From the IMG/VR virus record IMGVR_UViG_3300044984_002785: a DNA stretch of 26,143 nucleotides; one strand, 5' to 3'. Positions 7,678 through 26,001 of the stretch are shown piece after piece (positions within the stretch are counted from its first letter, which is position 1; every line of letters starts with the position of its first letter). Under the pieces are notes generated by a model that saw only the letters and a program-made list of their open reading frames with translations, had not been told where the DNA came from and did not search any database. Source of the stretch: a virus (lineage: Duplodnaviria > Heunggongvirae > Uroviricota > Caudoviricetes > Demerecviridae). A program made the translations under genes and the position numbers.

Positions 7678-7706
7678 ATTATAGCACTAATCCAAAAAAT
7701 TGTCAA
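7678..7706 (-). promoter_or_regulatory. Sigma70-type promoter for the tape measure/tail tip genes
   Basis: Minus strand reads TTGACA (7706-7701), 17 bp, TATAAT (7683-7678), ~60 nt upstream of the TMP start. Confidence 0.8.
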
Positions 7707-15531: not shown

Positions 15532-15963
15532 CTATGTGAACTCTGAGAAAAACGAGCCAAAACTTTGTGGGGCTACACTAGTACCACCAAGCAAATATTT
15601 TTCACGCTGTATCCCGATCCAACGGGCCTGCTTAGCTTCGCTACCAGGTTTCGGAGCTTTACCGTAAACACTATGAAGCGCTACATGATGCTGGTTACAT
15701 AGGGTGTAAACTTGATCATATAACTCAACATTATGCTCTGTGATAAACTCATCTCGTACAGCTAAAATACCTTCATCGGAGGATATATCGTAGCCTTTTC
15801 GTTCAGCCCACAGTTCCAAAAGTATTGTTACCGAGTGTAGGTGATGAAGTTCTAAATCTTGGGTTTTATCACAGATAAAACATTCAGACTTCTTTTCATA
15901 GGCTGCTTTAGCCTTATCGCGTACCCATTTTACTGGAATACGGTTATTTGTATTTTTAGCCAT
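15532..15963 (-). CDS. HNH endonuclease (T5-like nicking/packaging-associated)
   Basis: CFIC...LELHH...TLCNQHHVALH zinc-HNH pattern, located between terL and portal as in T5. Confidence 0.85.
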   Translation of the reverse strand: MAKNTNNRIPVKWVRDKAKAAYEKKSECFICDKTQDLELHHLHSVTILLELWAERKGYDISSDEGILAVRDEFITEHNVELYDQVYTLCNQHHVALHSVYGKAPKPGSEAKQARWIGIQREKYLLGGTSVAPQSFGSFFSEFT

Positions 15964-16073: not shown

Positions 16074-17360
16074 CTATAGAGTATAAGTATACAATGCGTA
16101 TCTAACTGCATCAGCCATGTGAGAATAATCATCGTGCATAGGGCGCTCGCGCTGCAGACCCTCACGTTGATCCCAGCGGTACTGGTCAAACATAGCTAGT
16201 ACATTTTCACAGTGTGGTGCAACTTTTAATCGACCTTGTGCTACTAGTGTTTGTACATAGGCAATTCCGGGCAGCACATCTTTTTTGGCTTTGGTAGTTG
16301 ACAGATCATATTGATAAGCCAAGTCGCCAGCAAATTGTGCAGCTGCAGAGTCAATAAATATAACTTCAACACCCCAACGCTGACAAAGTGCTTTAAACTC
16401 ATTGGCGTGTTCCGCGGTAGTCTTTTCACTTTGTAAGTATTCGTCAACCACGTAGAAACAATCCGATGCTGGTTCGTAGATGATAACCACAAATGCTGTA
16501 GCATCTCTGTAACCTGGGTCACAACCAGCTATGGCTTCACCTTTTGTATTTTCGGGTAATTCACAAACACTAGCAGCTTTGAAATCATATATTTGTCCAA
16601 CATACGTGGTAAAGCTAGCCATGTACTCTTGTTCAAACTCCGACTTTGACATCGACCGGCGGGCTTCTTGTACATCCGACTCAGCCATACGAGTATTCTC
16701 AGTATAATCTGCTTGTAGGCTAATCCATTCTGGAAAATTATCATCAAACCCACGATTCCAAAACTGACTAAACCAGTTATTTTTACCACGAGGTGTTGAA
16801 ATAAAAATGGCTTTGGCACTGGGCTTGTCTAAAGTAGGACGAAGTGCAACGTTAAACGCAGCCTCGCCACCTTCACCTAGTGCAGCTTCGTCAAAAATAA
16901 TCAAGTCATAGCTGCGACCAACAGTTGAGTCAACGGTACTAAGCGAGCCCATGCGAATGGTCGACCCATTTGATATTTCAATGATCTTGTCTTTTAAGTT
17001 ATCACGAGTAATTTCCAAATCAAAGTGCTTGATTAGTTTACGTTGTAGCTCAAATGAAATTGACGACAAATTGTAGTTAGGTGAAATAATAAGTACATTT
17101 GACCCAGGCACTAGACTGACTAGTTGCCCAACCACGTTGGCAATGTAAGTTTTACCCAGGCGACGGGCTAGTGCGGCGCAAACGAACCTGTACTTGGGGT
17201 CGTTGACGGCATTGATTAGTGCGATTTGGGGTCTGTTGATGGTATCCCAAATTCCCAGCAGTTTTAAGTAGTTGGTAATCGGCAGTTTAATAAATCTGGT
17301 TGCGGCTGGGAAATCTGTGATAACTTCCGAGTTAACATCTGGACGACTAATAGTTAGCAT
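16074..17360 (-). CDS. terL: Terminase large subunit (428 aa)
   Basis: Walker A ARRLGKT, Walker B LIIFDEAA, coupling motif ISTPRGKNNWF, RNase H-like nuclease domain (GCDPG...DSAAA...HMADAVRYA). Confidence 0.95.
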   Translation of the reverse strand: MLTISRPDVNSEVITDFPAATRFIKLPITNYLKLLGIWDTINRPQIALINAVNDPKYRFVCAALARRLGKTYIANVVGQLVSLVPGSNVLIISPNYNLSSISFELQRKLIKHFDLEITRDNLKDKIIEISNGSTIRMGSLSTVDSTVGRSYDLIIFDEAALGEGGEAAFNVALRPTLDKPSAKAIFISTPRGKNNWFSQFWNRGFDDNFPEWISLQADYTENTRMAESDVQEARRSMSKSEFEQEYMASFTTYVGQIYDFKAASVCELPENTKGEAIAGCDPGYRDATAFVVIIYEPASDCFYVVDEYLQSEKTTAEHANEFKALCQRWGVEVIFIDSAAAQFAGDLAYQYDLSTTKAKKDVLPGIAYVQTLVAQGRLKVAPHCENVLAMFDQYRWDQREGLQRERPMHDDYSHMADAVRYALYTYTL

Positions 17361-17833
17361 TAAATACCTTCACCAGTAATCAGCTGCTGAACCAACTTGG
17401 AATACTTTGATCCATCTAGGCCTTCATTGATTTGTACATTGACTTGTTTGCTGGGCGCAGTTCCAGCCCTGATTTTTTCCAGCTGAATTTCCTTGTCCAG
17501 TAAATCCATTGACATTTTGTGTGATAAGGCAAGTAGTTCCGATATGTCTTTTTGGGACCCGGTACCAGCCTCTTCAAGTTCGGAGAACTTTTTCTTGATT
17601 AAGGCATCCATGGCCCGGCGCATCAAAAAACGGTTATTGTATCCTGAGTCCATGAACACCGAATCAATATATGTTTTAACTTCACGACGTTGTAGTATGC
17701 TGGTCACAGTTTCAACATCCAAGTCAAGTTCTTGGGCGACCTTGCGGGCATCATTAACTTGAAGGTAACAATTAGCCACTTCCAGTGCTTCTGGGGCAAT
17801 TTGTATAATTTCAGCAGGTAGGTGTTGAGTCAT
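17360..17833 (-). CDS. terS: Terminase small subunit (157 aa, T5-like)
   Basis: Coupled to terL by a TAATG overlap and resembles T5 TerS (ISPEALEVANCYL-type N-terminus, YIDSVFMDSGYNNRF, KKFSELEE). Confidence 0.85.
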   Translation of the reverse strand: MTQHLPAEIIQIAPEALEVANCYLQVNDARKVAQELDLDVETVTSILQRREVKTYIDSVFMDSGYNNRFLMRRAMDALIKKKFSELEEAGTGSQKDISELLALSHKMSMDLLDKEIQLEKIRAGTAPSKQVNVQINEGLDGSKYSKLVQQLITGEGI

Positions 17834-17884: not shown

Positions 17885-18088
17885 GTGTGTTTTTTTCGAG
17901 GGTTTTTTGAGGGTTTTTTGAGGTTTACGCACCGAAAAGGTTTAGGGTAAATTTTCATAAATAGGCCGTGTGGGTGGGTCCAGTAGCGTACGTATATTTT
18001 GTAGTCTAATAACCGCCCCAGTCAGTATAACATAAAATCTATCATAAATCAATAGGGGTAAGCACCTAGAAAATAATTTAAAAATCTC

Positions 18089-18116
18089 TTGACGACGTAG
18101 GATTCTGTGATATAAT
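18089..18116 (+). promoter_or_regulatory. First rightward (pre-early-type) promoter
   Basis: TTGACG, 16 bp, TATAAT with a TG extended -10. Confidence 0.7.
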
Positions 18117-18122
18117 AAACAC

Positions 18123-18296
18123 ATGACAACAAGACAAGACTACTTACTAGCGTGCTCTGCAATTGAGGACAAGCATCCTAATGCATGGAGCATTGTACAA
18201 CATGACGACACAAATTTTTCTGCTAAGGTAGGGCATTGCATGGCGTACTATGTTATAATCGACAATGAAATTATTGGAGACATTTGGTATGAATAA
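18123..18296 (+). CDS. Hypothetical 57-aa protein, probably leaderless
   Basis: Manual translation gives MTTRQDYLLACSAIEDKHPNAWSIVQHDDTNFSAKVGHCMAYYVIIDNEIIGDIWYE. ATG lies 6 nt after the -10 hexamer. Confidence 0.65.
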   Translation: MTTRQDYLLACSAIEDKHPNAWSIVQHDDTNFSAKVGHCMAYYVIIDNEIIGDIWYE

Positions 18297-18381
18297 ATTT
18301 AAAGAATTTTGTGATCTTGCTCTTGCAATGACTTGCATTGCGATGCCTTTTGTGATATACTTCTATCAAATGAAACCCTAA
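18289..18381 (+). CDS. Hypothetical 30-aa hydrophobic peptide
   Basis: MNKFKEFCDLALAMTCIAMPFVIYFYQMKP, with an 8-nt overlap with the upstream stop. Confidence 0.5.
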   Translation: MNKFKEFCDLALAMTCIAMPFVIYFYQMKP

Positions 18382-18418
18382 CCCTTTCCCTTAACCCTTA
18401 ACTTTTTAGGACTTTAAA

Positions 18419-18742
18419 ATGACTGCAAAAACCGTGAACTATACCCCTGAGCAAACCCTGCAAATGGTTGCTGATTACCAAGCCGGTACAACTGTTGAGA
18501 CCATTGCCGAGGCATTGGGTAAGACTGTGCGTTCTGTCGTTGCTAAACTTTCGCGCGAGAAGGTTTACATTGCCAAGACATATGCCACCAAGACCGGCGA
18601 GGCTGTTATCAAAAAGGATACAGTAGCCGATTACATTGGCGAGGCTTTGGGCTTGGGTGAGGCTGATACAGAATCACTTACCAAAGCCAATAAGGTTGCA
18701 CTAAAAGCAATCGCTGATTTCATCAAGGCTGAAAAGACCTGA
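18419..18742 (+). CDS. T5 A2-like small DNA-binding (HTH) protein, paralog 1
   Basis: NYTPEQT...VETIAEALGKTVRSVVAKLSREKVY, then KK...ESLTKANK. Good RBS (TAGGA). Shared pattern with three other ORFs in the window. Confidence 0.75.
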   Translation: MTAKTVNYTPEQTLQMVADYQAGTTVETIAEALGKTVRSVVAKLSREKVYIAKTYATKTGEAVIKKDTVADYIGEALGLGEADTESLTKANKVALKAIADFIKAEKT

Positions 18743-18774
18743 TGGACTGTAGGGGCTTTGTCCCCTATAACCCA

Positions 18775-18793
18775 AATGCGAATCATTCGCATT
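18775..18793. promoter_or_regulatory. Fur-box-like 9-1-9 palindrome, copy A
   Basis: AATGCGAAT-C-ATTCGCATT, extending to a 13-1-13 palindrome over 18771-18797. Confidence 0.55.
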
Positions 18794-18798
18794 TGGGG

Positions 18799-18834
18799 GC
18801 GCCAATTATATCACATATAATTGGGCGGTGTCAA
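18799..18834 (-). repeat. Leftward promoter-like repeat, copy 1 of 8 (TTGACA-N18-TATAAT-T-GGCGC)
   Basis: Plus strand reads GCGCC..ATTATA (18805-10)..18 bp..TGTCAA (18829-34). Internal palindrome CCAATTATAT-CAC-ATATAATTGG. Confidence 0.85.
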
Positions 18835-18904
18835 TAGGGGTTTATCCCTATGTTGTATTTTTACACACTTGACTTTTTAACTGTTTTACTGATATAATAA
18901 AGGC

Positions 18905-19030
18905 ATGAACAATACATACACACCCCAACAGATTAGCCGCTTTCACCGCTTTTGTGATCGTCATGGCTTGCAATTTAATAACATGATAGAATATAATTCT
19001 GCTATTAAACAATTTTTCCTGAAAGACTAA
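18905..19030 (+). CDS. Hypothetical 41-aa protein, probably leaderless
   Basis: MNNTYTPQQISRFHRFCDRHGLQFNNMIEYNSAIKQFFLKD. ATG lies 6 nt after TATAAT (18893-98) of a TTGACT-18-TATAAT promoter. Confidence 0.65.
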   Translation: MNNTYTPQQISRFHRFCDRHGLQFNNMIEYNSAIKQFFLKD

Positions 19031-19031
19031 T

Positions 19032-19271
19032 ATGACTAAAAATCAATTGTTGCTTGACCTACAATCTGAAATGTGGGATTTTTATAAAGATGTGCATGGT
19101 ATGCGTCCAAGGCATTGGACGCAAGAAAATTGGGATTCCATGGAATTCTTGCAAGAACAAAGAATTTTGTTATGTGACATTGTAGACAAATTCACACCCA
19201 AAGAGAAAAAAGAAAATGGTTGGGGATTTGATAACTTTCTAGCTCAGGCTGTTGGCCCTGCTAGGACATGA
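19032..19271 (+). CDS. Hypothetical 79-aa phage protein
   Basis: ORF track. It starts 1 nt after the upstream stop and carries the WDFYKDVHGMRPR motif seen in small phage proteins. Confidence 0.75.
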   Translation: MTKNQLLLDLQSEMWDFYKDVHGMRPRHWTQENWDSMEFLQEQRILLCDIVDKFTPKEKKENGWGFDNFLAQAVGPART

Positions 19272-19274
19272 GAC

Positions 19275-19301
19275 AATAGCCCTACTGTGAGTAGGGCTAT
19301 T
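19275..19301. terminator. Hairpin/terminator abutting repeat copy 2
   Basis: AATAGCCCTAC-TGTGA-GTAGGGCTATT, 11-bp stem. Confidence 0.7.
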
Positions 19302-19302
19302 T

Positions 19303-19339
19303 GCGCCAAATTATACCATATAATTTGGGGCGATGTCAA
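19303..19339 (-). repeat. Leftward promoter-like repeat, copy 2
   Basis: GCGCC 19303, ATTATA 19310-15, TGTCAA 19334-39 (18-bp spacer). Palindrome CCAAATTATA-CCA-TATAATTTGG. Confidence 0.85.
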
Positions 19340-19453
19340 GGATTATTTACTAGGTGTTTTCACCTATGTTGTATTTTTGCACAAATGAAAAATAATTGCT
19401 TTATGCGCGTTTTTTGCTGTATAATTCATTCATACACTGAAAAGGACTTCAAA

Positions 19454-19930
19454 ATGGCTAAAATTACTCGATGCTCAATTTACGATATGGATGGCACTAT
19501 TGTTTGCAGTTTGCACAGATATAAAACCATTATTGACGATAATGGCGAACGTATTGATTTAGATTATTGGCGCGAAAATGAATATCGTGCAATGGATGAT
19601 TCTCTTTTGCCATTAGCCCAACAATATCGGGCAGATTTGCAAGACGAAAATTGTTTTGTGATTATTGCCACTGCGCGGGTTTTGCGTGATACTGATAATC
19701 AATTCATTAATGAAATTCTCGGTGAACCTGATTATATTATCTCCAGAGTTGACGGTGATTCTACTTCAGGCGGTAAATTAAAAATCTCGGGTTTGGCAAA
19801 GTTTTTTAATCTAAAATCATTTGCTAATGCTGAATTTACATTTTATGAAGATAATACCACATATTTAAAAGCGGTATGCGATAGATTTAATATTCGGGGC
19901 GTTTATATTCCCTCAAAACAAGGTCACTAA
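19454..19930 (+). CDS. dmp: HAD-family deoxynucleoside-5'-monophosphatase, T5 Dmp-like (158 aa)
   Basis: YDMDGTIVCSLHR, DSLLPL, IIATAR and NAEFTFYED match the T5 Dmp motif order. The true start MAKITR follows an AAAGGA RBS and a TTGCTT-18-TATAAT promoter, so the ORF-track start at 19301 is too far upstream. Confidence 0.85.
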   Translation: MAKITRCSIYDMDGTIVCSLHRYKTIIDDNGERIDLDYWRENEYRAMDDSLLPLAQQYRADLQDENCFVIIATARVLRDTDNQFINEILGEPDYIISRVDGDSTSGGKLKISGLAKFFNLKSFANAEFTFYEDNTTYLKAVCDRFNIRGVYIPSKQGH

Positions 19931-19966
19931 TATATAATCCCTTCGGGGATTATAAAGGATTATATT

Positions 19967-20119
19967 ATGTTTAAATCATTTGGAAAACTAATCGGGCATT
20001 TTATATTTAATCGGCCCGATAAAATACTAATCACATTAATATTGCCAATTCTTATGATTATGACTTTTAATTATCGGGATAATCTGCGAGAATATAAAGA
20101 TTTTATATTTGACCGATAA
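19967..20119 (+). CDS. Hypothetical 50-aa protein with one hydrophobic segment
   Basis: MFKSFGKLIGHFIFNRPDKILITLILPILMIMTFNYRDNLREYKDFIFDR, with an AAAGGA RBS following a UUCG hairpin (19933-19954). Confidence 0.6.
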   Translation: MFKSFGKLIGHFIFNRPDKILITLILPILMIMTFNYRDNLREYKDFIFDR

Positions 20120-20124
20120 AACAC

Positions 20125-20140
20125 TGTTTCACGTGAAACA
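20125..20140. promoter_or_regulatory. Perfect consensus parS site
   Basis: TGTTTCACGTGAAACA is the canonical chromosomal ParB/Spo0J-binding palindrome, here in intergenic DNA. Confidence 0.75.
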
Positions 20141-20169
20141 CAAAAACTGTTGTTTTTTAGCAACAGTTT

Positions 20170-20207
20170 GCGCCAAAATTATAACATATAATTTTAGGCG
20201 GTGTCAA
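20170..20207 (-). repeat. Leftward promoter-like repeat, copy 3
   Basis: GCGCC 20170, ATTATA 20178-83, TGTCAA 20202-07 (18-bp spacer). Palindrome AAAATTATA-ACA-TATAATTTT. Confidence 0.85.
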
Positions 20208-20285
20208 GCTTTTTTTTATAACTTATTTTTTGTGTGTGATTAAAATACAACAAGTTTTGGACATTTTTTCGGGTATAATTAGCAC

Positions 20286-20666
20286 ATGGACAAAAAAACA
20301 CTGCAAAAATTGCTAATCGCTGAGACTGCGACAATTTGGGATTCGCTTTGCGAAATGTACCCAAAATTATGCAAATTTAATCCGCCTGAAATTACTTTGT
20401 GCGGTAGGCTTTGGCGTACCGCTGGAATGTGTTTTCAGGAAACACGCACAATTAAAATTGGTTCAAAATTTTTCAATCATTCTGAATTGTATACAAAAGA
20501 AATGTTTTCGGTTATTTTGCCGCATGAAATTATACACCAAGCCGATTTTGACCTTTTTGGATTATCCGAAAAAAAATGTGGTCATGGCAAAAAATGGCAA
20601 AAAATCATGGTACAATATGGGCTTAAAGCCGATTTTTATCACACAATGGAAATTAAAAGAAAATGA
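20286..20666 (+). CDS. SprT-like zinc metalloprotease (126 aa), probably leaderless
   Basis: RLWRTAG...ILPHEIIHQ...CGHGKKWQKIM (HExxH plus downstream H-G-x-x-W). ATG lies 6 nt after TATAAT at 20274-79. Confidence 0.85.
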   Translation: MDKKTLQKLLIAETATIWDSLCEMYPKLCKFNPPEITLCGRLWRTAGMCFQETRTIKIGSKFFNHSELYTKEMFSVILPHEIIHQADFDLFGLSEKKCGHGKKWQKIMVQYGLKADFYHTMEIKRK

Positions 20667-20878
20667 TTAACTTTTTATCTTGGTTTGGTACTGTTGTTTC
20701 AATTTTGGGAAGTTTTGCCGTAGCAAGCAAAAGTTTTCAAATTGGTTATGTTTTGTTTACTTTTGGTTCTTTGGCTTGGCTTATTGTGGCTTTTGTAAAA
20801 CGTGATAAGGCTTTAGGCGTTTTAAACGGCACATTTTTTGCGGCTAATCTGTTGGGAATTTACAACAACTTTTTTTAA
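20663..20878 (+). CDS. Small 3-TM membrane protein (71 aa)
   Basis: ORF track. Three hydrophobic segments and an ATGA overlap with the SprT-like gene. Confidence 0.75.
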   Translation: MINFLSWFGTVVSILGSFAVASKSFQIGYVLFTFGSLAWLIVAFVKRDKALGVLNGTFFAANLLGIYNNFF

Positions 20879-20986
20879 ATTATTTTCGGTTTTTTCAGTT
20901 TTTCCGCAAAAACTGGGTTATAATCTAATCTAGGGCAAACGCTCTAAAATGCGAATTCCGGCATTATCCGGTAATAAGGTTACAAA

Positions 20987-21685
20987 ATGGCTAAAAAACA
21001 ATTCTTTGCAATTCTCGATACTGAAACCACAATTTCAGATACTGTTGCCGATTTTGCAATTATTATCGTTGACCGTGAGGGCAAAATATATAATCAATGC
21101 GCGGTTTTAGTTAATGGTCATTATGGCAATTTTGAATTATTCCACGATAAAGCCGCAAATGATATTTGGGGTTATGAGGGTTTAAATAAACGCAAAGCCA
21201 ATTATATTAATATGCTAGATAATGGCACGCGCATGGTCGCTTCAGTTAATGCAATTAATAAATGGATTAATCAAGCCATTGGCAAATATAATCCTACTTT
21301 GACCGCTTATAATCTCGCTTTTGATAAATCAAAATGCCTTAATACTGGAATTGATTTGTCGGGTTTTAATTCTGAATTTTGTTTGTGGCAAGCGGCTGTT
21401 GGTAATATCTGCAATAAAAAAGATTATCGCAATTTTGCAATTCAAAATCACGCATTTAATAAAGTTACTCAACATGGTAATATGACTTTTCAAACTAATG
21501 CAGAAATTGTTTGTGGTTTTATTAATGGCGAGTTTATCAAAGAACCCCATACCGCATTAGAAGATGCCCGAGATTTTGAATTGCCGATTCTCAAAGCCAT
21601 TATTAAAAAGCGAGATTGGAAAGATAATATCAAGCCTTATTCTTGGCGCGATTTTCAAACCAAAGATTGGTTTACTGCAAAATAA
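20987..21685 (+). CDS. DEDDh-family 3'-5' exonuclease (232 aa)
   Basis: ExoI motif ILDTET, ExoII TAYNLAFD, ExoIII HTALEDARDFE. Confidence 0.85.
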   Translation: MAKKQFFAILDTETTISDTVADFAIIIVDREGKIYNQCAVLVNGHYGNFELFHDKAANDIWGYEGLNKRKANYINMLDNGTRMVASVNAINKWINQAIGKYNPTLTAYNLAFDKSKCLNTGIDLSGFNSEFCLWQAAVGNICNKKDYRNFAIQNHAFNKVTQHGNMTFQTNAEIVCGFINGEFIKEPHTALEDARDFELPILKAIIKKRDWKDNIKPYSWRDFQTKDWFTAK

Positions 21686-21721
21686 ATAATAATCGGGGCT
21701 AATAACCCCGATTATTAAAAG

Positions 21722-21841
21722 ATGAAAATACTTTATATTATTGCACTGGTTTTGCATTTAATGGACGATAAAAGATTAGATTCTAAAATAGATACTAATC
21801 CTTTTCAAATTCAAACTATCGGGGAAATATATCATGGATAA
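21722..21841 (+). CDS. Hypothetical 39-aa peptide
   Basis: MKILYIIALVLHLMDDKRLDSKIDTNPFQIQTIGEIYHG. It fills the gap between hairpin 21688-21716 and the PQ-loop gene (8-nt overlap). Confidence 0.45.
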   Translation: MKILYIIALVLHLMDDKRLDSKIDTNPFQIQTIGEIYHG

Positions 21842-22082
21842 TGTTGGTTGGCTTGGTTCTATATTATTGGCATTTTGTGGATTACCACAAGCCATAGAAT
21901 CATATAAAACAAAAAACTCGGATGGATTAACTTGGGGTTTTGTTTTAATGTGGTTCGTGGGTGAAATATGCACTTTTGTTTATATTATCCCCAAAATGGA
22001 TTTGCCATTATTATTTAATTACTCTGCAAATATAATGTTTTTAATTATCATTATATATTATAAAATAAATCCAAAAAGATAA
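21834..22082 (+). CDS. PQ-loop / SemiSWEET-like 3-TM membrane protein (82 aa)
   Basis: LGSILLAFCGLPQAIESYKTKNSDGLTW shows the TM1-PQ-loop signature, followed by two more TM helices. Confidence 0.75.
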   Translation: MDNVGWLGSILLAFCGLPQAIESYKTKNSDGLTWGFVLMWFVGEICTFVYIIPKMDLPLLFNYSANIMFLIIIIYYKINPKR

Positions 22083-22089
22083 TAAACCA

Positions 22090-22108
22090 AATGCGAATCA
22101 TTCGCATT
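22090..22108. promoter_or_regulatory. Fur-box-like 9-1-9 palindrome, copy B
   Basis: AATGCGAAT-C-ATTCGCATT, identical to copy A. Confidence 0.55.
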
Positions 22109-22113
22109 TGGCG

Positions 22114-22149
22114 GCGCCAATTATACTTGTATAATTGCACCGGTGTCAA
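22114..22149 (-). repeat. Leftward promoter-like repeat, copy 4
   Basis: GCGCC 22114, ATTATA 22120-25, TGTCAA 22144-49 (18-bp spacer). Palindrome CAATTATAC-TT-GTATAATTG. Confidence 0.85.
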
Positions 22150-22257
22150 GCTTTTTTTATAACTTATTTTTTGTGTGTGATTAAAAAACAACGGGTTTTT
22201 GTGGTACAATAGGATGTGCGCGCCAAAAATTTACTTATCAAAATGAGAACCAAAGTT

Positions 22258-22295
22258 GCGCCAAAATTATACCACATAATTTTCTGCCACGTCAA
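22258..22295 (-). repeat. Leftward promoter-like repeat, copy 5
   Basis: GCGCC 22258, ATTATA 22266-71, CGTCAA 22290-95 (TTGACG, 18-bp spacer). Confidence 0.8.
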
Positions 22296-22475
22296 TAGGG
22301 GTTTATCCCTATGTTGTATTTTTGCACACTTGATTTTTTCAGGCAAAATCGGTTATAATAAACACATAGCAGGGAATCGGGAAACAAGCAAAGACCCCAC
22401 AAAAAATAAGTCTTTGACAACTGCCCAAAACCTGATATAATAGAATCTTAAACAAACGAACCAAAGGAAATCAAA

Positions 22476-22802
22476 ATGACTAGCAAAACTGTCAACTATA
22501 CTCCAGAACAAACCGCCGCTATTGTGGCCGATTATCAATCTGGCATGAGCGTGGAAACTATCGCTGAAAATTTGGGCAAAACTGTCCGTTCGGTTGTGGC
22601 TAAATTGTCGCGCGAAAAAGTCTATGTGGCTAAAACTTATGTTTCAAAAACTGGCGCTCCAGTTGTGAAAAAAGACGCTCACGCTGACGCTATCGGCGCG
22701 ATTCTCAAATTGTCGGAAAATGAAATCGAATCTCTGACAAAAGCCAATAAAACGGCATTGGAAAAAATCTTTTCCGCTTTGGCAAATTCTAAGCCAATTT
22801 AA
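22476..22802 (+). CDS. T5 A2-like small DNA-binding protein, paralog 2
   Basis: Strong similarity to 18419..18742 (KTVNYTPEQT...LGKTVRSVVAKLSREKVYVAK...ESLTKANK). AAAGGA RBS and TTGACA-16-TATAAT promoter at 22414-22441. Confidence 0.78.
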   Translation: MTSKTVNYTPEQTAAIVADYQSGMSVETIAENLGKTVRSVVAKLSREKVYVAKTYVSKTGAPVVKKDAHADAIGAILKLSENEIESLTKANKTALEKIFSALANSKPI

Positions 22803-22860
22803 GCGAATCGGGGCGCAAGCCCCGATTTTGTGGTATAATTTAATTTTCAAGGAAACCAAA

Positions 22861-23157
22861 ATGCAATCCAATTCTAAACTCAACAAATTTGAAAAATCCG
22901 TGCTCAAAGACGCGCGCAAATTTAATCCTGATGTACACTTTGCACATATGGGCAAAACCACAATCGCTTTCCAACACGTAGGCGATTTGGTAGAATTTGC
23001 TACCGCAATTTGCGCTGATAACGAAAAGAAAAATCGTCCCAAAGTTGGCAAGTATTGGGCAATGACCCGATTTGAAAATGGCCAAACTGTAAAAATGCCT
23101 TTTTTCCAGTTTGATAATATGATGGAAAATGAGGAAGCATTGGCACTTTGGCCATAA
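22861..23157 (+). CDS. Hypothetical 98-aa protein
   Basis: Starts MQSNSKLNKFEK after an AAGGA RBS. The ORF-track GTG start at 22828 overlaps the -10 element. Confidence 0.7.
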   Translation: MQSNSKLNKFEKSVLKDARKFNPDVHFAHMGKTTIAFQHVGDLVEFATAICADNEKKNRPKVGKYWAMTRFENGQTVKMPFFQFDNMMENEEALALWP

Positions 23158-23173
23158 TTGCCAAAACCACAAT

Positions 23174-23230
23174 AACCCGCTCAGGCGGGTTTTTTGTTGC
23201 TTGAATAACCCTACTGCCCGTAGGGTTATT
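23174..23230 (+). terminator. Terminator plus second hairpin at the end of the plus-strand gene block
   Basis: AACCCGC-TCAG-GCGGGTT-TTTT, then AATAACCCTAC-TGCCC-GTAGGGTTATT. Confidence 0.75.
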
Positions 23231-23231
23231 G

Positions 23232-23269
23232 GCGCCAAAATTATACCATATAATTTTGGCCGGTGTCAA
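23232..23269 (-). repeat. Leftward promoter-like repeat, copy 6
   Basis: GCGCC 23232, ATTATA 23240-45, TGTCAA 23264-69 (18-bp spacer). Palindrome GCCAAAATTATA-CCA-TATAATTTTGGC. Confidence 0.85.
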
Positions 23270-23338
23270 GCATTTTTGCAAATATATTTTTTCTGTTGTT
23301 TTTTGGCACCTGGCACGATTCTTGCTTGCACAAGGCCA

Positions 23339-23357
23339 AATGCGAATGATTCTCATT
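23339..23357. promoter_or_regulatory. Fur-box-like 9-1-9 palindrome, copy C
   Basis: AATGCGAAT-G-ATTCTCATT (one mismatch). Confidence 0.5.
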
Positions 23358-23368
23358 ACGTGAAAAAG

Positions 23369-23419
23369 TTATCCACAGGTTATCCACAGGAGCAAAAACT
23401 TGTCCACAGGTTATCCACA
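23369..23419 (+). promoter_or_regulatory. Cluster of four co-oriented DnaA boxes
   Basis: TTATCCACA at 23369, 23380 and 23411, and TTGTCCACA at 23400 (start spacings 11, 20, 11). Confidence 0.8.
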
Positions 23420-23431
23420 GCCTGGAACAGG

Positions 23432-23510
23432 CTGCGCCAGTGGAAAACCTTGGCAAGTGGAAAATCTTGGTAGGTTCCTGCGCCAGTGGAAAACCTTGTC
23501 AAGTGGAAAA
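23432..23510 (+). repeat. 33-bp direct repeat pair (46-bp period) with AGTGGAAAA sub-repeats, resembling an injection-stop signal block
   Basis: CTGCGCCAGTGGAAAACCTTG(G/T)CAAGTGGAAAA at 23432-64 and 23478-510, with a fifth AGTGGAAAA at 23540. Confidence 0.8.
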
Positions 23511-23526
23511 CTTTGGGGTTTTTGCC

Positions 23527-23562
23527 GCGCCCATTATATAGTGGAAAAGCTTAGTGTGTCAA
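23527..23562 (-). repeat. Leftward promoter-like repeat, copy 7
   Basis: GCGCC 23527, ATTATA 23533-38, TGTCAA 23557-62 (18-bp spacer). No internal palindrome. Confidence 0.75.
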
Positions 23563-23661
23563 GTACTTTTTTAGCCAAACTCTGTTAGCCTTGAAAATTT
23601 TTCAGTTGATGGATTTCTTGAAATTTTGTATAATTGTTTTATCAACAGGAAAGGGCCCAAG

Positions 23662-23796
23662 ATGACTGACACCGAATTTTACAGGCAAATCCAGGAAGAC
23701 TGGTACCATGAATTTGCGGGAGCAGAACTATCGCAAATTTTCGTATGTACCGATGCACACGACGAAATTTTTGAATTTGACGATGTGCCCTTCTAG
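23662..23796 (+). CDS. 44-aa acidic peptide ending in an SSB C-terminal-tail-like motif (EFDDVPF)
   Basis: MTDTEFYRQIQEDWYHEFAGAELSQIFVCTDAHDEIFEFDDVPF. Upstream TTGATG-17-TATAAT promoter (23606-23634) and AGGA RBS. Confidence 0.7.
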   Translation: MTDTEFYRQIQEDWYHEFAGAELSQIFVCTDAHDEIFEFDDVPF

Positions 23797-23842
23797 TGAT
23801 ATAATTATTCTTTAAACAGCGCAGAAACCAAACAAAGGACAT

Positions 23843-24151
23843 ATGATGACTGAAGCTACCAAAACCAATTACACCCCCGAACAAACTGCAGTTCTCGTTG
23901 CAGGCTACCAAGCAGGCGAAACTGTGGAAGTTCTGGCTACCAAACTCGGTAAGACTACTCGAAGTGTAGTAGCTAAGCTGAGTCGTGAAGGCGTCTACAA
24001 AGCCAAATCGAAAGCCACCCAGCATAAGCTCAAAAAAGCTGAACTGGTCGACAAACTTGCCATGCTTTGTGGTGTGCCAGCCGAAGTATTTGAAAGCCTG
24101 GAAAAGGCCAACCACGATGCTTTGGAAACTCTGTTGAGCCGTCTGGCTTGA
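23843..24151 (+). CDS. T5 A2-like small DNA-binding protein, paralog 3
   Basis: NYTPEQT...YQAGETVEVLATKLGKTTRSVVAKLSREGVYKAK...ESLEKAN, with an AAAGGA RBS. Confidence 0.78.
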   Translation: MMTEATKTNYTPEQTAVLVAGYQAGETVEVLATKLGKTTRSVVAKLSREGVYKAKSKATQHKLKKAELVDKLAMLCGVPAEVFESLEKANHDALETLLSRLA

Positions 24152-24211
24152 ACAGTTTAGGGTCAGAAAATTCTCTCTTGAATCAATGACCCATTTCAAG
24201 TATAATATATA

Positions 24212-24344
24212 TTAGACAGTCGGGAAAGGCTTTAAAAATGACAAAATCTTTGTCGAGCCTGTTCAGCGACAGCAGCCCACCTCACTAAACAGCAATTGAA
24301 TTGCAATCATCTGTGTGGCTAGCCTGTTCGCAACGACTGTCTAA
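24212..24344 (+). ncRNA. Candidate ~133-nt small RNA closed by an 11-bp terminal stem
   Basis: Begins at the predicted TSS of a TTGAAT-17-TATAAT promoter (24178-24206). TTAGACAGTCG pairs with CGACTGTCTAA, with internal hairpins and no ORF. Confidence 0.65.
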
Positions 24345-24389
24345 ATTTATACTTGATTGTGCAGTTTGAATACTGTATAATAGATATAT

Positions 24390-24700
24390 ATATAAGGGTG
24401 ACAGCGGCGTGCTATATGTAAATCTTAGAATTTAGCACATACGTCTTAATTGTGGGAAATCTCGTGACCGAGCCACAGCCCTGAACATATAAGAACTAGC
24501 CTTGACTAGGCATAGGTTTTGGTGGGACACGACATGTGTAGGTATCGATAGTTCGCGGCGGCCGTCGTATACAAGTAACTACTACTCTACAAATCAAAGA
24601 TTCTACTAAATTCGCAAGACTAGTTCTTATATGTTTATGGTGTTATGCGTCTACGCTATATAGTAGATAACAACTTAATTGAGACCGAAGCTAGTCTCAG
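24390..24700 (+). ncRNA. Candidate structured RNA(s) upstream of tRNA-Glu
   Basis: TTGATT-17-TATAAT promoter (24353-24381). Multi-stem domain at ~24395-24483, and a perfect 16-bp long-range helix 24484-99/24620-35 enclosing sub-hairpins. Confidence 0.55.
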
Positions 24701-24708
24701 CCAAATTT

Positions 24709-24783
24709 ACTGCGTTCGACTTCAGGTGAGGTCATCACCCTTTCAAGGTGACTAGATGGGATCGATACCCATACGCAGTACCA
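24709..24783 (+). tRNA. tRNA-Glu (anticodon UUC)
   Basis: Acceptor ACTGCGT/ACGCAGT plus A-CCA, D-arm GAC/GTC, anticodon arm TCACC-CTTTCAA-GGTGA, T-arm ATGGG-ATCGATA-CCCAT. Confidence 0.92.
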
Positions 24784-24793
24784 AAGGAATAAT

Positions 24794-24904
24794 ATGATAC
24801 CAATAGTATTTGCTGTAGTTATTTTATCCTGGCTATTTAGCCCAGGAACAGCACTAGGTATATTTATACTCATAGCTGGCATACTAGTGCTAGCTAGTTT
24901 ATAG
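24794..24904 (+). CDS. 36-aa uncharged membrane peptide
   Basis: MIPIVFAVVILSWLFSPGTALGIFILIAGILVLASL, with an AAAGGA RBS directly after the tRNA CCA. Confidence 0.65.
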   Translation: MIPIVFAVVILSWLFSPGTALGIFILIAGILVLASL

Positions 24905-25464
24905 CCCGGGTAACCTTCTGAAGATGGTCTGACCCTAAATTGTAGAACGCGTTACAGCTTCTTTAAATGCGAGTTATCTGTCGCAGCAATTTTAAATGTG
25001 ACCGAAACCCTCAGCACACGGCAGCTGTTCGCGATGTATTCACAGTACGTCCACAGCCGCAGTTGAGGGTCAAGGCTGGGATGGTGTTAGCACACCAGAA
25101 CGATTGAGATCACACCTTGGTGAAAGAACACCAAAAAATACAGCTATGATCTAAACAAGACCCGGATAGCTCCGGAAATGTAGTTGCGGGAAGTTGCACT
25201 CCCGGCATCGGACGCATAGTCTGTTGTGTAGAGCAAGCCACAATACTACTAGCGGCATGGAGAGTACAATTGTAGTAACTATCCCAAACAAAAAACTACT
25301 AAAGAGGAAGGCAGTATGTAAGCTTCGGCTGTGTACGTCCTCTAATAAAATTGTTAAGCTAACAGAGTAAGGGCCGATCGCGAAGCCAGGGAGTGAGAAC
25401 CTTGCCGGGACTGTGACGACCTTATTTGAAGCCAGGTATGCCTCACATACGTTAACAATCAACT
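24905..25464 (+). ncRNA. Candidate large, ornate structured ncRNA (~560-590 nt; GOLLD/ROOL size class, family not assigned)
   Basis: Higher GC, no credible plus-strand ORF, more than 12 helices visible by eye, adjacent to a tRNA and ending at an intrinsic terminator. Confidence 0.6.
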
Positions 25465-25500
25465 AGCCCACCAGGAGTCATGCCCTGTGTGGGCTTTTTG
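25465..25500 (+). terminator. Intrinsic terminator closing the RNA island
   Basis: AGCCCAC-CAGG...CCTG-T-GTGGGCT followed by TTTTG. Confidence 0.8.
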
Positions 25501-25523
25501 TTGTGTAAAACTGTGACCTATCT

Positions 25524-25560
25524 GCGCCAAATTATACCAGTGCAAAAACTCCACTGTCAA
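25524..25560 (-). repeat. Leftward promoter-like repeat, copy 8
   Basis: GCGCC 25524, ATTATA 25531-36, TGTCAA 25555-60 (18-bp spacer). Confidence 0.8.
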
Positions 25561-25683: not shown

Positions 25684-26001
25684 TTATTCGGGTTTAGGGT
25701 CAGATTCGGTGAGTTTAAGTTCAATTAACTTAAGCACCCCCTTATTGACCTTTTCCAGCGATTCTAGGGTCTCGACGTCAACTTCTAGTAATTCCGCAAT
25801 CTTGTCAATGTGCTGGGATTTTTTCACTGGCAGCTCACCTCGCTTGTTTGTATATGTTTTTTTCTCATAAACTCCAAGTGAGCTCAATTTTGCAATAACT
25901 GATCTTTCAGGTACATCAATTGAGTAAGCAATATCTCTAACTGGCACCTTGTCTTTGTACTCAGCTATGATACGGTCAGTGATTTCTTTAGTGTATTTCA
26001 T
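25684..26001 (-). CDS. A2-like small DNA-binding protein, divergent paralog 4
   Basis: MKYTKEIT...IAYSIDVPERSVIAKLSSLGVYEKK...PVKK...ESLEKVNK follows the same pattern as paralogs 1-3. Confidence 0.72.
   Translation of the reverse strand: MKYTKEITDRIIAEYKDKVPVRDIAYSIDVPERSVIAKLSSLGVYEKKTYTNKRGELPVKKSQHIDKIAELLEVDVETLESLEKVNKGVLKLIELKLTESDPKPE

What the first reader, a model, noticed from the sequence alone, without database searches (positions are those of the whole stretch)
18799..25560. Array of eight co-oriented 'backward' consensus promoters (TTGACA-N18-TATAAT-(T)n-GGCGC) that drive no gene
Seen: eight copies (GCGCC at 18799, 19303, 20170, 22114, 22258, 23232, 23527, 25524), all on the minus strand. 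All have an 18-bp spacer (the real late promoters at 7678, 16028 and 17856 have 17) and an invariant GCGCC at the +1/discriminator position. In copies 1-6 the -10 box is one arm of an AATTAT(A)-N2-5-(T)ATAATT palindrome. None has a downstream ORF. Five run immediately into a hairpin, two of which (19275 and 23204) are near-identical with a compensatory G-C to A-T change. Inference, not mutually exclusive: (i) RNA polymerase sinks or generators of ~30-60-nt antisense RNAs; (ii) operators for the A2-like paralogs; (iii) polymerase loading sites oriented toward the genome end that mechanically control staged DNA entry; (iv) GCGC-based nick sites for the HNH nuclease, since T5 nicks fall at GCGC-containing sites.
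Basis: partly seen in the sequence, partly recalled or inferred. Interest (0 to 1): 0.8.

Follow-up and report, generated by a model that had tools for sequence, protein, structure and literature searches.

The report
Backward promoter array in T5-like phage
An uncultured relative of phage T5 ends each of its first-expressed gene units with a perfect host-type promoter that points backwards and drives no gene; the layout recurs in hundreds of copies in related phages and probably restrains or times those genes, but nothing has been measured.

Summary
Eight minus-strand copies of TTGACA-N18-TATAAT-N1-3-GGCGC lie at 18799-25560, against 0.01 expected by chance.

The window is a T5-like phage. 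Its TerL is 46% identical to T5's and its SciB/TerS homologue 37%, in the same gene order. The copies lie in the pre-early-like block beside the terminase genes. Each closes a plus-strand transcription unit.

In IMG/VR relatives I counted 402 copies in 201 loci. There were 96 multi-copy loci and none had copies on both strands. Near-complete ~100-kb genomes have one 6-8 kb cluster and no copies elsewhere.

- The -35, the 18-bp spacer, the -10 and GGCGC are invariant, while the spacer content varies.
- 63% of copies have a perfect palindrome that mirrors the -10. Others have a DnaA-box-like spacer or another type.
- Only 4 of 116 copies precede an ORF.
- The hairpins downstream fold better as the convergent genes' RNA.
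- T5 and a Vibrio T5-like phage lack the motif.

Best reading (0.45): a dedicated class of real sigma-70 promoters, convergent with the pre-early units, that restrains or shuts them off. The long spacer and GC-rich discriminator suggest gating by DNA topology. Main rival: GGCGC matches the R/GCGC core of T5 nick sites, on the T5-nicked strand.

This scan noted the same layout before on other DNA (e1-1853458, e1-5434232). No transcript data could be had.

The parts
18799..18834 (-). Backward promoter copy 1 (palindromic spacer): TTGACA, 18-bp spacer, TG, TATAAT, T, GGCGC
19303..19339 (-). Backward promoter copy 2 (palindromic spacer)
20170..20207 (-). Backward promoter copy 3 (palindromic spacer)
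22114..22149 (-). Backward promoter copy 4 (palindromic spacer, no TG)
22258..22295 (-). Backward promoter copy 5 (-35 is TTGACG, weaker palindrome); the unit before it holds no gene
23232..23269 (-). Backward promoter copy 6 (best palindrome, 12-bp arms, -10 kcal/mol as single-stranded DNA)
23527..23562 (-). Backward promoter copy 7 (no palindrome). The spacer carries TTTTCCACT, an 8-of-9 match to the DnaA box TTWTNCACA. It lies in the injection-stop-like block.
25524..25560 (-). Backward promoter copy 8 (no palindrome, spacer with TTTTTGCACT). It follows the terminator of the plus-strand RNA-gene unit.
18771..18797 (+). Hairpin directly downstream of copy 1, at the 3' end of gene 18419-18742; the same hairpin recurs at 22086-22112 after copy 4
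   Evidence: family D6
19276..19300 (+). Hairpin after copy 2; related to 23204-23230 through a compensatory G-C to A-T change
20144..20169 (.). Hairpin after copy 3, flanked by an A run and a T run; terminator-like in both directions
22086..22112 (.). Hairpin after copy 4; terminator-like on the minus strand
23204..23230 (+). Hairpin after copy 6, conserved in relatives next to the last palindromic copy
18834..18851 (+). Small palindrome plus T-rich tail abutting the backward -35; plus-strand terminator-like. Also at 19351-19366 and 22295-22312. In these units plus-strand transcription would cross the backward promoter before ending.
   Evidence: (D3)
18869..18898 (+). Forward partner promoter of copy 1 (TTGACT-18-TATAAT), back to back with 34 bp between the two -35 boxes; same layout at 22330-22359 for copy 5
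23477..23484 (-). Only full match in the window to the T5 major-nick consensus R/GCGCRGG (GGCGCAGG). It lies in a repeated unit TTGNCA-AGGTTTTCCACT-GGCGC-AG of the injection-stop-like block.
   Evidence: (D4); PMC3517423
17360..17833 (-). Small terminase / SciB homologue (37% identical to T5 SciB), first gene downstream of the array on the same strand
15532..15963 (-). HNH-like protein between TerL and portal, 42% identical to a Vibrio T5-like phage protein annotated as nicking endonuclease; context for the nick-site rival

Best explanation
The eight elements are real binding and start sites for the host sigma-70 RNA polymerase. They form a promoter class of their own: consensus -35, 18-bp spacer, usually a TG-extended consensus -10, an A-rich stretch upstream, and an invariant GC-rich GGCGC just downstream.

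Each sits at the 3' end of a plus-strand pre-early-like transcription unit and fires back into it. It is also back to back with the weaker promoter of the next unit.

I infer that they act in cis, by convergent transcription (polymerase collision, promoter occlusion, antisense RNA), to limit or shut off the first-expressed units and to insulate the cassettes from one another. I also infer that they are conditional. A long spacer and a GC-rich discriminator both make a promoter depend on negative supercoiling, so they should be weak on freshly injected linear DNA and stronger once the DNA is torsionally constrained. The variable spacer content would add a second control: a palindrome that could sequester the -10 in a cruciform, or a DnaA-box-like site.

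Shown: the anatomy, conservation, orientation, confinement and absence of genes. Inferred: polymerase binding, transcription, interference and gating.
For: - Chance is excluded: 0.01 matches expected.
- Anchoring only on TATAAT-N0-4-GGCGC, 127 of 133 hits lie on the terminase strand. TTGACA sits exactly 18 bp upstream in about 90% of them, at 1.3-1.9 bits per position, while the spacer carries little information. An A-rich stretch lies just upstream of the -35.
- All 113 perfect 18-bp promoters in 846 kb of relatives carry GGCGC. Among the 94 perfect 16- and 17-bp promoters only 8 do, all 17-bp ones on the terminase strand.
- 402 copies in 201 loci; 96 multi-copy loci, none with both strands.
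- Nine records of 70-104 kb (seven at 91-100% estimated completeness) each have one single-strand cluster of 2-8 copies spanning about 6-8 kb, and none elsewhere.
- Three or more unrelated spacer types share the same -35/18/-10/GGCGC skeleton.
- ORFs cover 9.6% of the arrays on the motif strand and 60% on the other. 69 of 116 copies face the stop codon of a convergent ORF, and 4 of 116 precede an ORF.
- In the window all eight plus-strand units end in a copy.
- Backward promoters have an 18-bp spacer in 94%, discriminator GC of 0.69 and TG in 65%. Their forward partners have mixed spacers, GC 0.37 and TG in 27%, with mostly 2-3 mismatches.
- Long spacers are favoured by negative supercoiling, and GC-rich discriminators are repressed by relaxation (PMC9303308).
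- In T5, promoter classes differ mainly in the discriminator (PMC7472727).
- T5 pre-early expression is switched off after about 5 min by an unexplained route (10.1101/866236).
Against:
- If always active, such strong convergent promoters would cripple genes the phage needs first. The model therefore needs gating that is only inferred.
- The exact invariance of GGCGC (113 of 113) at a variable offset of 0-4 bases from the -10 is more than a GC clamp needs. It hints at sequence-specific recognition by something other than polymerase.
- Perfect-consensus promoters can be slow to escape, so productive antisense RNA may be scarce.
- T5 and a Vibrio T5-like phage manage without the motif.
Confidence: 0.45

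Rival explanations
1. The invariant GGCGC marks strand-specific nick sites made at packaging by the terminase-associated SciB/HNH system, as in T5. The promoter skeleton either helps recognition or makes use of the nick, which would lie on the non-template strand at about +1. This may coexist with promoter function.
For: - The T5 major-nick consensus is R/GCGCRGG (PMC3517423). The four annotated T5 sites read GCGCAGGG or GCGCGGG on the minus strand, and T5-type nicks are on the minus strand (PMC10644984).
- The window is collinear with T5, so the motif strand is the T5-nicked strand.
- GGCGC is exact in 113 of 113 copies although its offset from the -10 varies.
- Homologues of SciB (37%) and of an annotated nicking endonuclease (42%, HNH-like) are present.
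- The window's only full consensus match (23477-23484) lies in the injection-stop-like block, where T5 has its 7.9% nick, within a similar TTTGCAC...GCGCAG context.
Against: - Copies 1-6 lack the RGG part; copies 7 and 8 have RG only.
- T5 nick sites carry no promoter and are spread over the genome, while this motif is confined to one block.
- The complete relative G003 has no RGCGCRGG at all and no strand bias of GGCGC.
- This reading does not explain the conserved -35, -10, TG and 18-bp spacing.
Confidence: 0.15
2. The sites dock RNA polymerase tightly but mostly unproductively. The bound enzyme serves as a roadblock that ends plus-strand read-through at weak hairpin terminators. It could also be a topological barrier that traps transcription-made negative supercoils for the adjacent forward promoter on DNA with a free end.
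For: - Every recognition element is at consensus, which favours tight binding and slow escape (escape limitation is general knowledge).
- Most plus-strand 3' hairpins lack a U tract.
- Each copy is back to back with a weaker forward promoter, whose -10 lies about 55-90 nt beyond the backward -35.
Against: - No binding data exist.
- Elongating polymerases usually dislodge promoter-bound ones.
- 25% of units have their forward terminator beyond the backward promoter, so the roadblock would be passed.
- A true sink is implausible with 4-8 sites per genome.
Confidence: 0.12
3. The elements are chiefly recombination joints. They would be conserved regulatory cassettes that promote modular shuffling of small early genes, like PeSLs in T4-type phages, with the backward promoter carried along as part of the cassette.
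For: - Within the window the flanks are mosaic. Copies 1 and 4 share the left flank, copies 1 and 5 the right flank, and copies 3 and 4 another right flank. Copy 5 closes a unit with no gene.
- PeSLs are near-consensus sigma-70 promoter plus stem-loop composites in plastic regions (PMC2839356, PMC4122927).
- Contigs of relatives often break at the motif.
Against: - Recombination needs only a repeat. It does not explain why the repeat is a perfect promoter, always backwards, always with 18 bp and GGCGC.
- Different spacer types keep the same skeleton.
- No exchange events between relatives were traced here.
Confidence: 0.1
4. The palindrome is the functional part. It would be an operator for a dimeric phage protein such as the four A2-like paralogs, and the promoter likeness would be secondary.
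For: - 193 of 305 unique cores are palindromic and 184 are perfect, against about 0.15% in spacer-shuffled controls.
- G-T pairs are nearly absent, which points to DNA-level symmetry.
- Four paralogous small DNA-binding-like proteins are encoded nearby, with a weak resemblance to T5 A2.
Against: - 37% of copies, including copies 7 and 8, have no palindrome.
- One lineage (G010) uses a different spacer type.
- The loop varies from 0 to 5 nt, and the distance between the ATTAT and ATAAT half-sites varies from 3 to 7 nt (read off the arm list), which a rigid dimer would not tolerate.
- The arm simply mirrors the -10 plus linker, whatever the linker is.
- The -35 is more conserved than the spacer.
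Confidence: 0.06
5. The array serves the DNA rather than gene control. It could supply primer RNAs for replication or for duplication of the terminal repeat. Alternatively GGCGC could be a Chi-like signal that tames the host's end-processing nuclease on the first-entering DNA.
For: - Strict co-orientation and confinement to the presumed terminal repeat.
- The motif strand is the one that ends 3' at the leading end, the correct orientation for Chi (inference).
- How T5 DNA escapes RecBCD on entry is an open question (10.1101/866236).
- Strong DnaA boxes lie next to copy 7.
Against: - The host is unknown, so its Chi sequence cannot be checked.
- Nothing explains why a Chi signal would always sit 0-4 nt after a consensus -10.
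- No replication data exist.
- GGCGC has no strand bias elsewhere in the genome.
Confidence: 0.05

Closest known systems
PeSL (promoter-early stem-loop) cassettes of T4-type phages (PMC2839356, PMC4122927)
   Same: Repeated composites of a stem-loop and a near-perfect sigma-70 promoter between small ORFs of a plastic early region. Flanks are shuffled between copies.
   Different: A PeSL promoter has N17 and faces the next gene, followed by a Shine-Dalgarno site and start codon. Here the conserved promoter has N18 plus GGCGC, faces backwards into the hairpin, and has no gene. A separate, weaker forward promoter serves the next gene.
Convergent or cis-antisense phage promoters: lambda Po/oop RNA, lambda PaQ and PRE, P22 sar, coliphage 186 pL against pR (own knowledge)
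   Same: A sigma-70 promoter placed at or beyond the 3' end of an early unit and firing back into it. It lowers that unit's expression through antisense RNA or transcriptional interference.
   Different: Those are single sites with a defined transcript and terminator and are not at consensus. Here an array of 4-8 consensus copies closes every unit, mostly without a backward terminator (23%), and with an invariant GGCGC.
Supercoiling-sensitive promoters with long spacers and GC-rich discriminators (PMC9303308); the artificial cruciform-regulated promoter of Horwitz and Loeb, 1988 (own knowledge)
   Same: An 18-bp spacer and a GC-rich discriminator. In 63% of copies there is also a perfect palindrome covering the -10 that could extrude under negative supercoiling.
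   Different: No natural promoter class combining full consensus hexamers, N18, an invariant pentamer and a -10 palindrome is known to me. The topological response is untested here.
T5 major nick sites, R/GCGCRGG (PMC3517423; features of AY587007)
   Same: The R/GCGC core, on the same strand by synteny. One full match lies in the injection-stop-like block. SciB and HNH homologues are present.
   Different: T5 sites are not promoters, number four in unique DNA plus one in the repeat, and need RGG. The eight copies lack RGG and are confined to one block.
T5 temporal promoter classes distinguished by the discriminator (PMC7472727)
   Same: Host-polymerase promoters of one phage sorted into classes by the sequence just after the -10.
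   Different: T5 early promoters carry ATATT there and drive genes. T5 has no GGCGC/N18 class.
Leftward minor E. coli promoter A0 near the left end of T7 DNA (own knowledge, not checked here)
   Same: A host-polymerase promoter in first-entering DNA that points to the genome end and has no known gene.
   Different: It is a single weak site, not a conserved consensus array.

Membership tests
Sigma-70-type promoter | -35 hexamer close to TTGACA | tested here: met
   7 of 8 exact, 1 TTGACG; 1.3-1.9 bits per position in relatives when anchored on the -10 and GGCGC only
Sigma-70-type promoter | -10 hexamer close to TATAAT at 16-19 bp from the -35 | tested here: met
   8 of 8 TATAAT at 18 bp; 18 bp in 94% of 321 unique clade copies
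Sigma-70-type promoter | Auxiliary elements (TG at -15/-14, A-rich UP-like stretch) | tested here: met
   TG in 6 of 8 and 65% of the clade; A-rich positions just upstream of the -35
Sigma-70-type promoter | Polymerase binding and a mapped transcription start | not testable with these tools
PeSL cassette | Stem-loop joined to a near-consensus early promoter, repeated in a plastic region with shuffled flanks | tested here: met
PeSL cassette | Promoter faces the downstream ORF, followed by a ribosome-binding site and start codon | tested here: not met
   Copies face the stop codon of a convergent ORF (69 of 116); 4 of 116 precede an ORF
T5-type nick site | R/GCGC core on the nicked (minus) strand | tested here: met
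   GGCGC in 8 of 8 on the minus strand; strand equivalence by synteny
T5-type nick site | RGG following GCGC | tested here: not met
   None of the 8; copies 7 and 8 have RG; the full site occurs only at 23477-23484
T5-type nick site | An interruption present in virion DNA | not testable with these tools
   No reads or virion DNA available
Short terminated cis-antisense RNA (oop-like) | Hairpin plus U tract in the promoter's own direction within about 80 nt | tested here: inconclusive
   Terminator-like in 3 of 8 window copies and 23% of 315 clade copies; hairpins fold better as forward RNA
Operator of a dimeric repressor | Inverted half-sites at a fixed spacing in all copies | tested here: not met
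   Palindrome in 63% only; loop 0-5 nt, shifting centre; other spacer types
Cruciform-forming palindrome | Perfect inverted repeat with a short centre | tested here: met
   Copies 1-6; 184 perfect palindromes with 8-15 bp arms
Cruciform-forming palindrome | Extrusion in supercoiled DNA | not testable with these tools
   Needs S1 or chemical probing

The most novel reading that the evidence does not exclude
The array is a topological timer built into the first-injected DNA. These perfect promoters would be switched by the physical state of the phage DNA rather than by a classical regulator. That state could be relaxed, supercoiled or cruciform, or it could depend on a packaged nick at G/GCGC on the non-template strand at +1 being open or sealed. 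Transcription polarity in the pre-early block would then flip at a set moment of infection and turn the first genes off.
Probability: 0.15. Interest if true: 0.9.

Novelty: new variant of a known kind. Interest (0 to 1): 0.68.

Why it matters
How T5-type phages switch off their first-step-transfer genes, protect and handle the first 8% of their DNA, and what their strand-specific nicks are for are decades-old open questions. This clade shows a sharply defined, highly conserved cis element: full-consensus promoter, N18, GGCGC, backwards, one per unit. It sits exactly in that DNA, which gives a concrete handle for experiments.

It would also be a natural example of promoters used as antisense caps of gene cassettes. 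Possibly it is a case of promoter control by DNA topology or cruciform extrusion, so far shown mainly with artificial constructs. For annotation, it warns that the strongest promoters in a phage genome need not drive genes.

Tried and rejected
- A near-identity search of GenBank phages with the block found nothing.
- The nearest held record, G001, does not overlap the block.
- T5 (left repeat and whole genome) and Vibrio phage 234P1 do not carry the motif. It is therefore a clade feature, not a family-wide one.
- Rfam found no family in the window.
- Literature searches for T5 antisense or leftward pre-early transcripts, or for this motif, found nothing relevant.
- Orientation by alignment with the T5 injection-stop region failed, because the DnaA-box pairs and palindromes match both T5 orientations. 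Orientation rests instead on gene order.
- RNA hairpin reading of the palindrome: rejected as the main reading, because G-T pairs are almost absent (3 in 193 palindromes).
- Hairpins as products of the backward promoters: rejected, since they are more stable and richer in G-U as forward RNA.
- Polymerase-driven DNA entry: rejected on orientation.
- RNA polymerase sink: rejected on numbers (inference).
- A forward promoter using the mirrored -10: no usable -35 (reading).
- Genome-wide nick consensus in the relative G003: absent.
Terminal-repeat borders, ends, nicks and transcripts could not be examined.

Full report
**What the window is.** Late genes run on the minus strand up to the large terminase (16074-17360) and a 157-aa protein (17360-17833). 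These are 46% and 37% identical to T5 ORF144 (TerL) and SciB. They are in the same order and on the same strand as in T5, where the right terminal repeat follows.

From about 18.1 to 24.15 kb lie small plus-strand genes with their own promoters. Next comes a block with DnaA boxes and direct repeats (23.34-23.56 kb). After that is a plus-strand RNA-gene stretch with a tRNA-Glu. Minus-strand genes follow from 25.68 kb.

This matches the T5 order of late genes, repeat with pre-early genes and injection-stop region, then early genes. T5 injects its left end first (10.1101/866236). So by synteny the 18-kb side would lead.

**The observation.** All eight copies are real. Each has TTGACA (TTGACG in copy 5), exactly 18 bp, TATAAT, 1-3 bases, then GGCGC, all on the minus strand. 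Exact matching gives 9 hits against 0.01 expected. The two extra hits, and the terminase promoter, have 17-bp spacers.

Copies 1-6 carry a palindrome in which the -10 plus linker is mirrored in the spacer. Copies 7 and 8 do not. Five copies abut a hairpin.

Every one of the eight plus-strand units of the block ends in a copy. These include a unit without a gene, the DnaA-box block and the RNA-gene unit.

**Relatives.** The terminase brought in 80 IMG/VR loci at 82-98% identity.
- Together these hold 402 copies in 201 loci. There are 96 multi-copy loci and none has copies on both strands.
- In nine records of 70-104 kb (seven at 91-100% estimated completeness), the copies (2-8 by the strict pattern) form one cluster of about 6-8 kb next to the terminase genes, on its strand. 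There are none elsewhere.
- T5 and a Vibrio T5-like phage have none.
- ORFs of 60 aa or more cover 9.6% of the arrays on the motif strand and 60% on the other. 69 of 116 copies face a convergent stop codon and 4 of 116 precede an ORF.

**What is conserved.** I anchored on TATAAT-N0-4-GGCGC alone.
- The -35 appears exactly 18 bp upstream in about 90% of copies and is the most informative upstream element. The spacer is not.
- All 113 perfect N18 promoters carry GGCGC. Perfect N16 and N17 promoters on either strand almost never do.
- The spacer content falls into unrelated types: a palindrome, a TTTTSCACT (DnaA-box-like) type in the two copies farthest from the terminase genes, and a G-rich type in one lineage.
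- The skeleton that sigma-70 polymerase reads, plus GGCGC, is therefore what selection keeps.
- The forward partner promoters are much poorer matches, with mixed spacers and AT-richer discriminators (GC 0.37 against 0.69).

**The palindrome.** 193 of 305 unique cores are palindromic and 184 are perfect, with arms of 8-15 bp. Spacer-shuffled controls give about 0.15%.
- The arm follows whatever linker lies between the -10 and GGCGC (T, TT, TTT, ATT, C).
- The loop varies from 0 to 5 nt.
- G-T pairs are nearly absent.

This argues for DNA-level symmetry such as a cruciform or hairpin. It argues against an RNA stem and against a rigid dimer site.

**The hairpins downstream.** They are frequent (mean z -3.3). 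They are more stable and richer in G-U when read as the convergent genes' RNA (-16.8 against -15.8 kcal/mol, p about 1e-8; 375 against 222 G-U pairs).
- Terminator-like signals in the backward direction occur in 23% of copies.
- In 25% of copies a forward terminator-like hairpin lies just beyond the backward -35.

So the hairpins belong to the plus-strand units. Backward transcripts, if made, would often run antisense into the preceding gene. Some forward transcripts would cross the backward promoter.

**Mechanism.** The best-supported reading is a dedicated class of host-polymerase promoters that close each pre-early unit convergently. In T5, promoter classes differ mainly in the discriminator (PMC7472727). 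Pre-early expression stops after about 5 min by an unexplained route.

Long spacers are favoured by negative supercoiling, and GC-rich discriminators are repressed by relaxation (PMC9303308). Both hallmarks therefore predict low activity on freshly injected, free-ended DNA and more activity later. That would let the weaker forward promoters work first. This gating, and any role of cruciform extrusion or of DnaA at copies 7 and 8, is inference.

In the right-hand repeat or in concatemers the same promoters point into the terminase and late genes.

**Main rival.** GGCGC is as invariant as the hexamers, yet its offset varies. That suggests recognition in its own right.
- It equals the R/GCGC core of the T5 major-nick consensus R/GCGCRGG (PMC3517423), on the strand nicked in T5 (PMC10644984).
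- The phage encodes homologues of SciB and of an HNH-like protein annotated elsewhere as a nicking endonuclease.
- The only full consensus site (23477-23484) lies in the injection-stop-like block, as does T5's 7.9% nick.
- Against this, copies 1-6 lack RGG. T5 nick sites are neither promoters nor confined to the repeat. A complete relative has no full consensus site.

**Evolution.** The flanks of the copies are mosaic, as with PeSL cassettes of T4-type phages. The motif probably also serves as a recombination joint.

**Earlier notes.** This scan had noted the same layout in two other genomes of what seems to be the same freshwater group. I re-derived the arrangement independently. New here are:
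- the coupling of N18 with GGCGC;
- the geometry of the palindrome;
- the strand assignment of the hairpins;
- the comparison with forward promoters;
- the link to T5 nick sites.

Noticed in passing
L081:9621-9668, L202:411-458, L203:621-668, L204:512-558 (T5, AY587007): All four annotated major nick sites in unique T5 DNA and the repeat carry GTAAT or GTAAC 34-36 nt upstream of the nick on the nicked strand. T5 nick recognition therefore looks bipartite. I did not check whether this is already published.
   Followed up: partly
window 24709-24783 (+): ARAGORN finds a tRNA-Glu (anticodon TTC) inside the 24.2-25.5 kb stretch that another note treats as an ornate non-coding RNA. Plus-strand promoters lie at 24178 and 24353 and a terminator at about 25460-25500.
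   Followed up: no
window 23432-23516 and the spacers of copies 7 and 8: The repeated AGTGGAAAA units read TTTTCCACT on the minus strand, an 8-of-9 match to the DnaA box TTWTNCACA. With the four strong boxes at 23363-23420 the block looks like an origin-type array of strong and weak DnaA sites. Relatives keep a unit TTGNCA-AGGWTTWSCACT-GGCGC-AG about 60 nt from the first non-palindromic promoter.
   Followed up: partly
window 15532-15963 (-) and 17360-17833 (-): The protein between TerL and portal is 42% identical to a Vibrio T5-like phage protein annotated as nicking endonuclease and is weakly HNH-like. The protein before TerL is a SciB / small-terminase homologue. The T5-type nicking apparatus therefore seems to be present.
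   Followed up: partly
window 18834-18851, 19351-19366, 22295-22312; many relatives: A small palindrome abuts the backward -35 and co-varies between copies (TAGGGGT..ACCCCTA, TAGGTGT..ACACCTA). It is followed by TGTTGTATTTTT. It may be a forward terminator or a second operator.
   Followed up: partly
relatives, e.g. L010:1195-1300, L016:3426-3530, L055:4167-4270: Downstream of many backward promoters in relatives lies an approximately 18-nt unit (RAAACAAAAGTATTMCA), single or as an inverted pair that forms a long hairpin. It is absent from this window, whose hairpins differ.
   Followed up: no
window 18419-18742, 22476-22802, 23843-24151 (+), 25684-26001 (-): Four paralogous proteins of about 105 aa (38-67% identity to the first) align over their whole length with T5 A2 at 27% identity. 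The pairwise BLAST is only marginal (E 0.07).
   Followed up: partly
G010 (IMGVR_UViG_3300034073_004910) 54019-60889: One lineage keeps the TTGACA-N18-TATAAT-GGCGC skeleton but has G-rich spacers (AAGTAWRGGATRGGG) instead of palindromes.
   Followed up: no
window 18000-24160: GCGC occurs 26 times against 7 expected from base composition. The late region shows no excess (25 against 25).
   Followed up: partly
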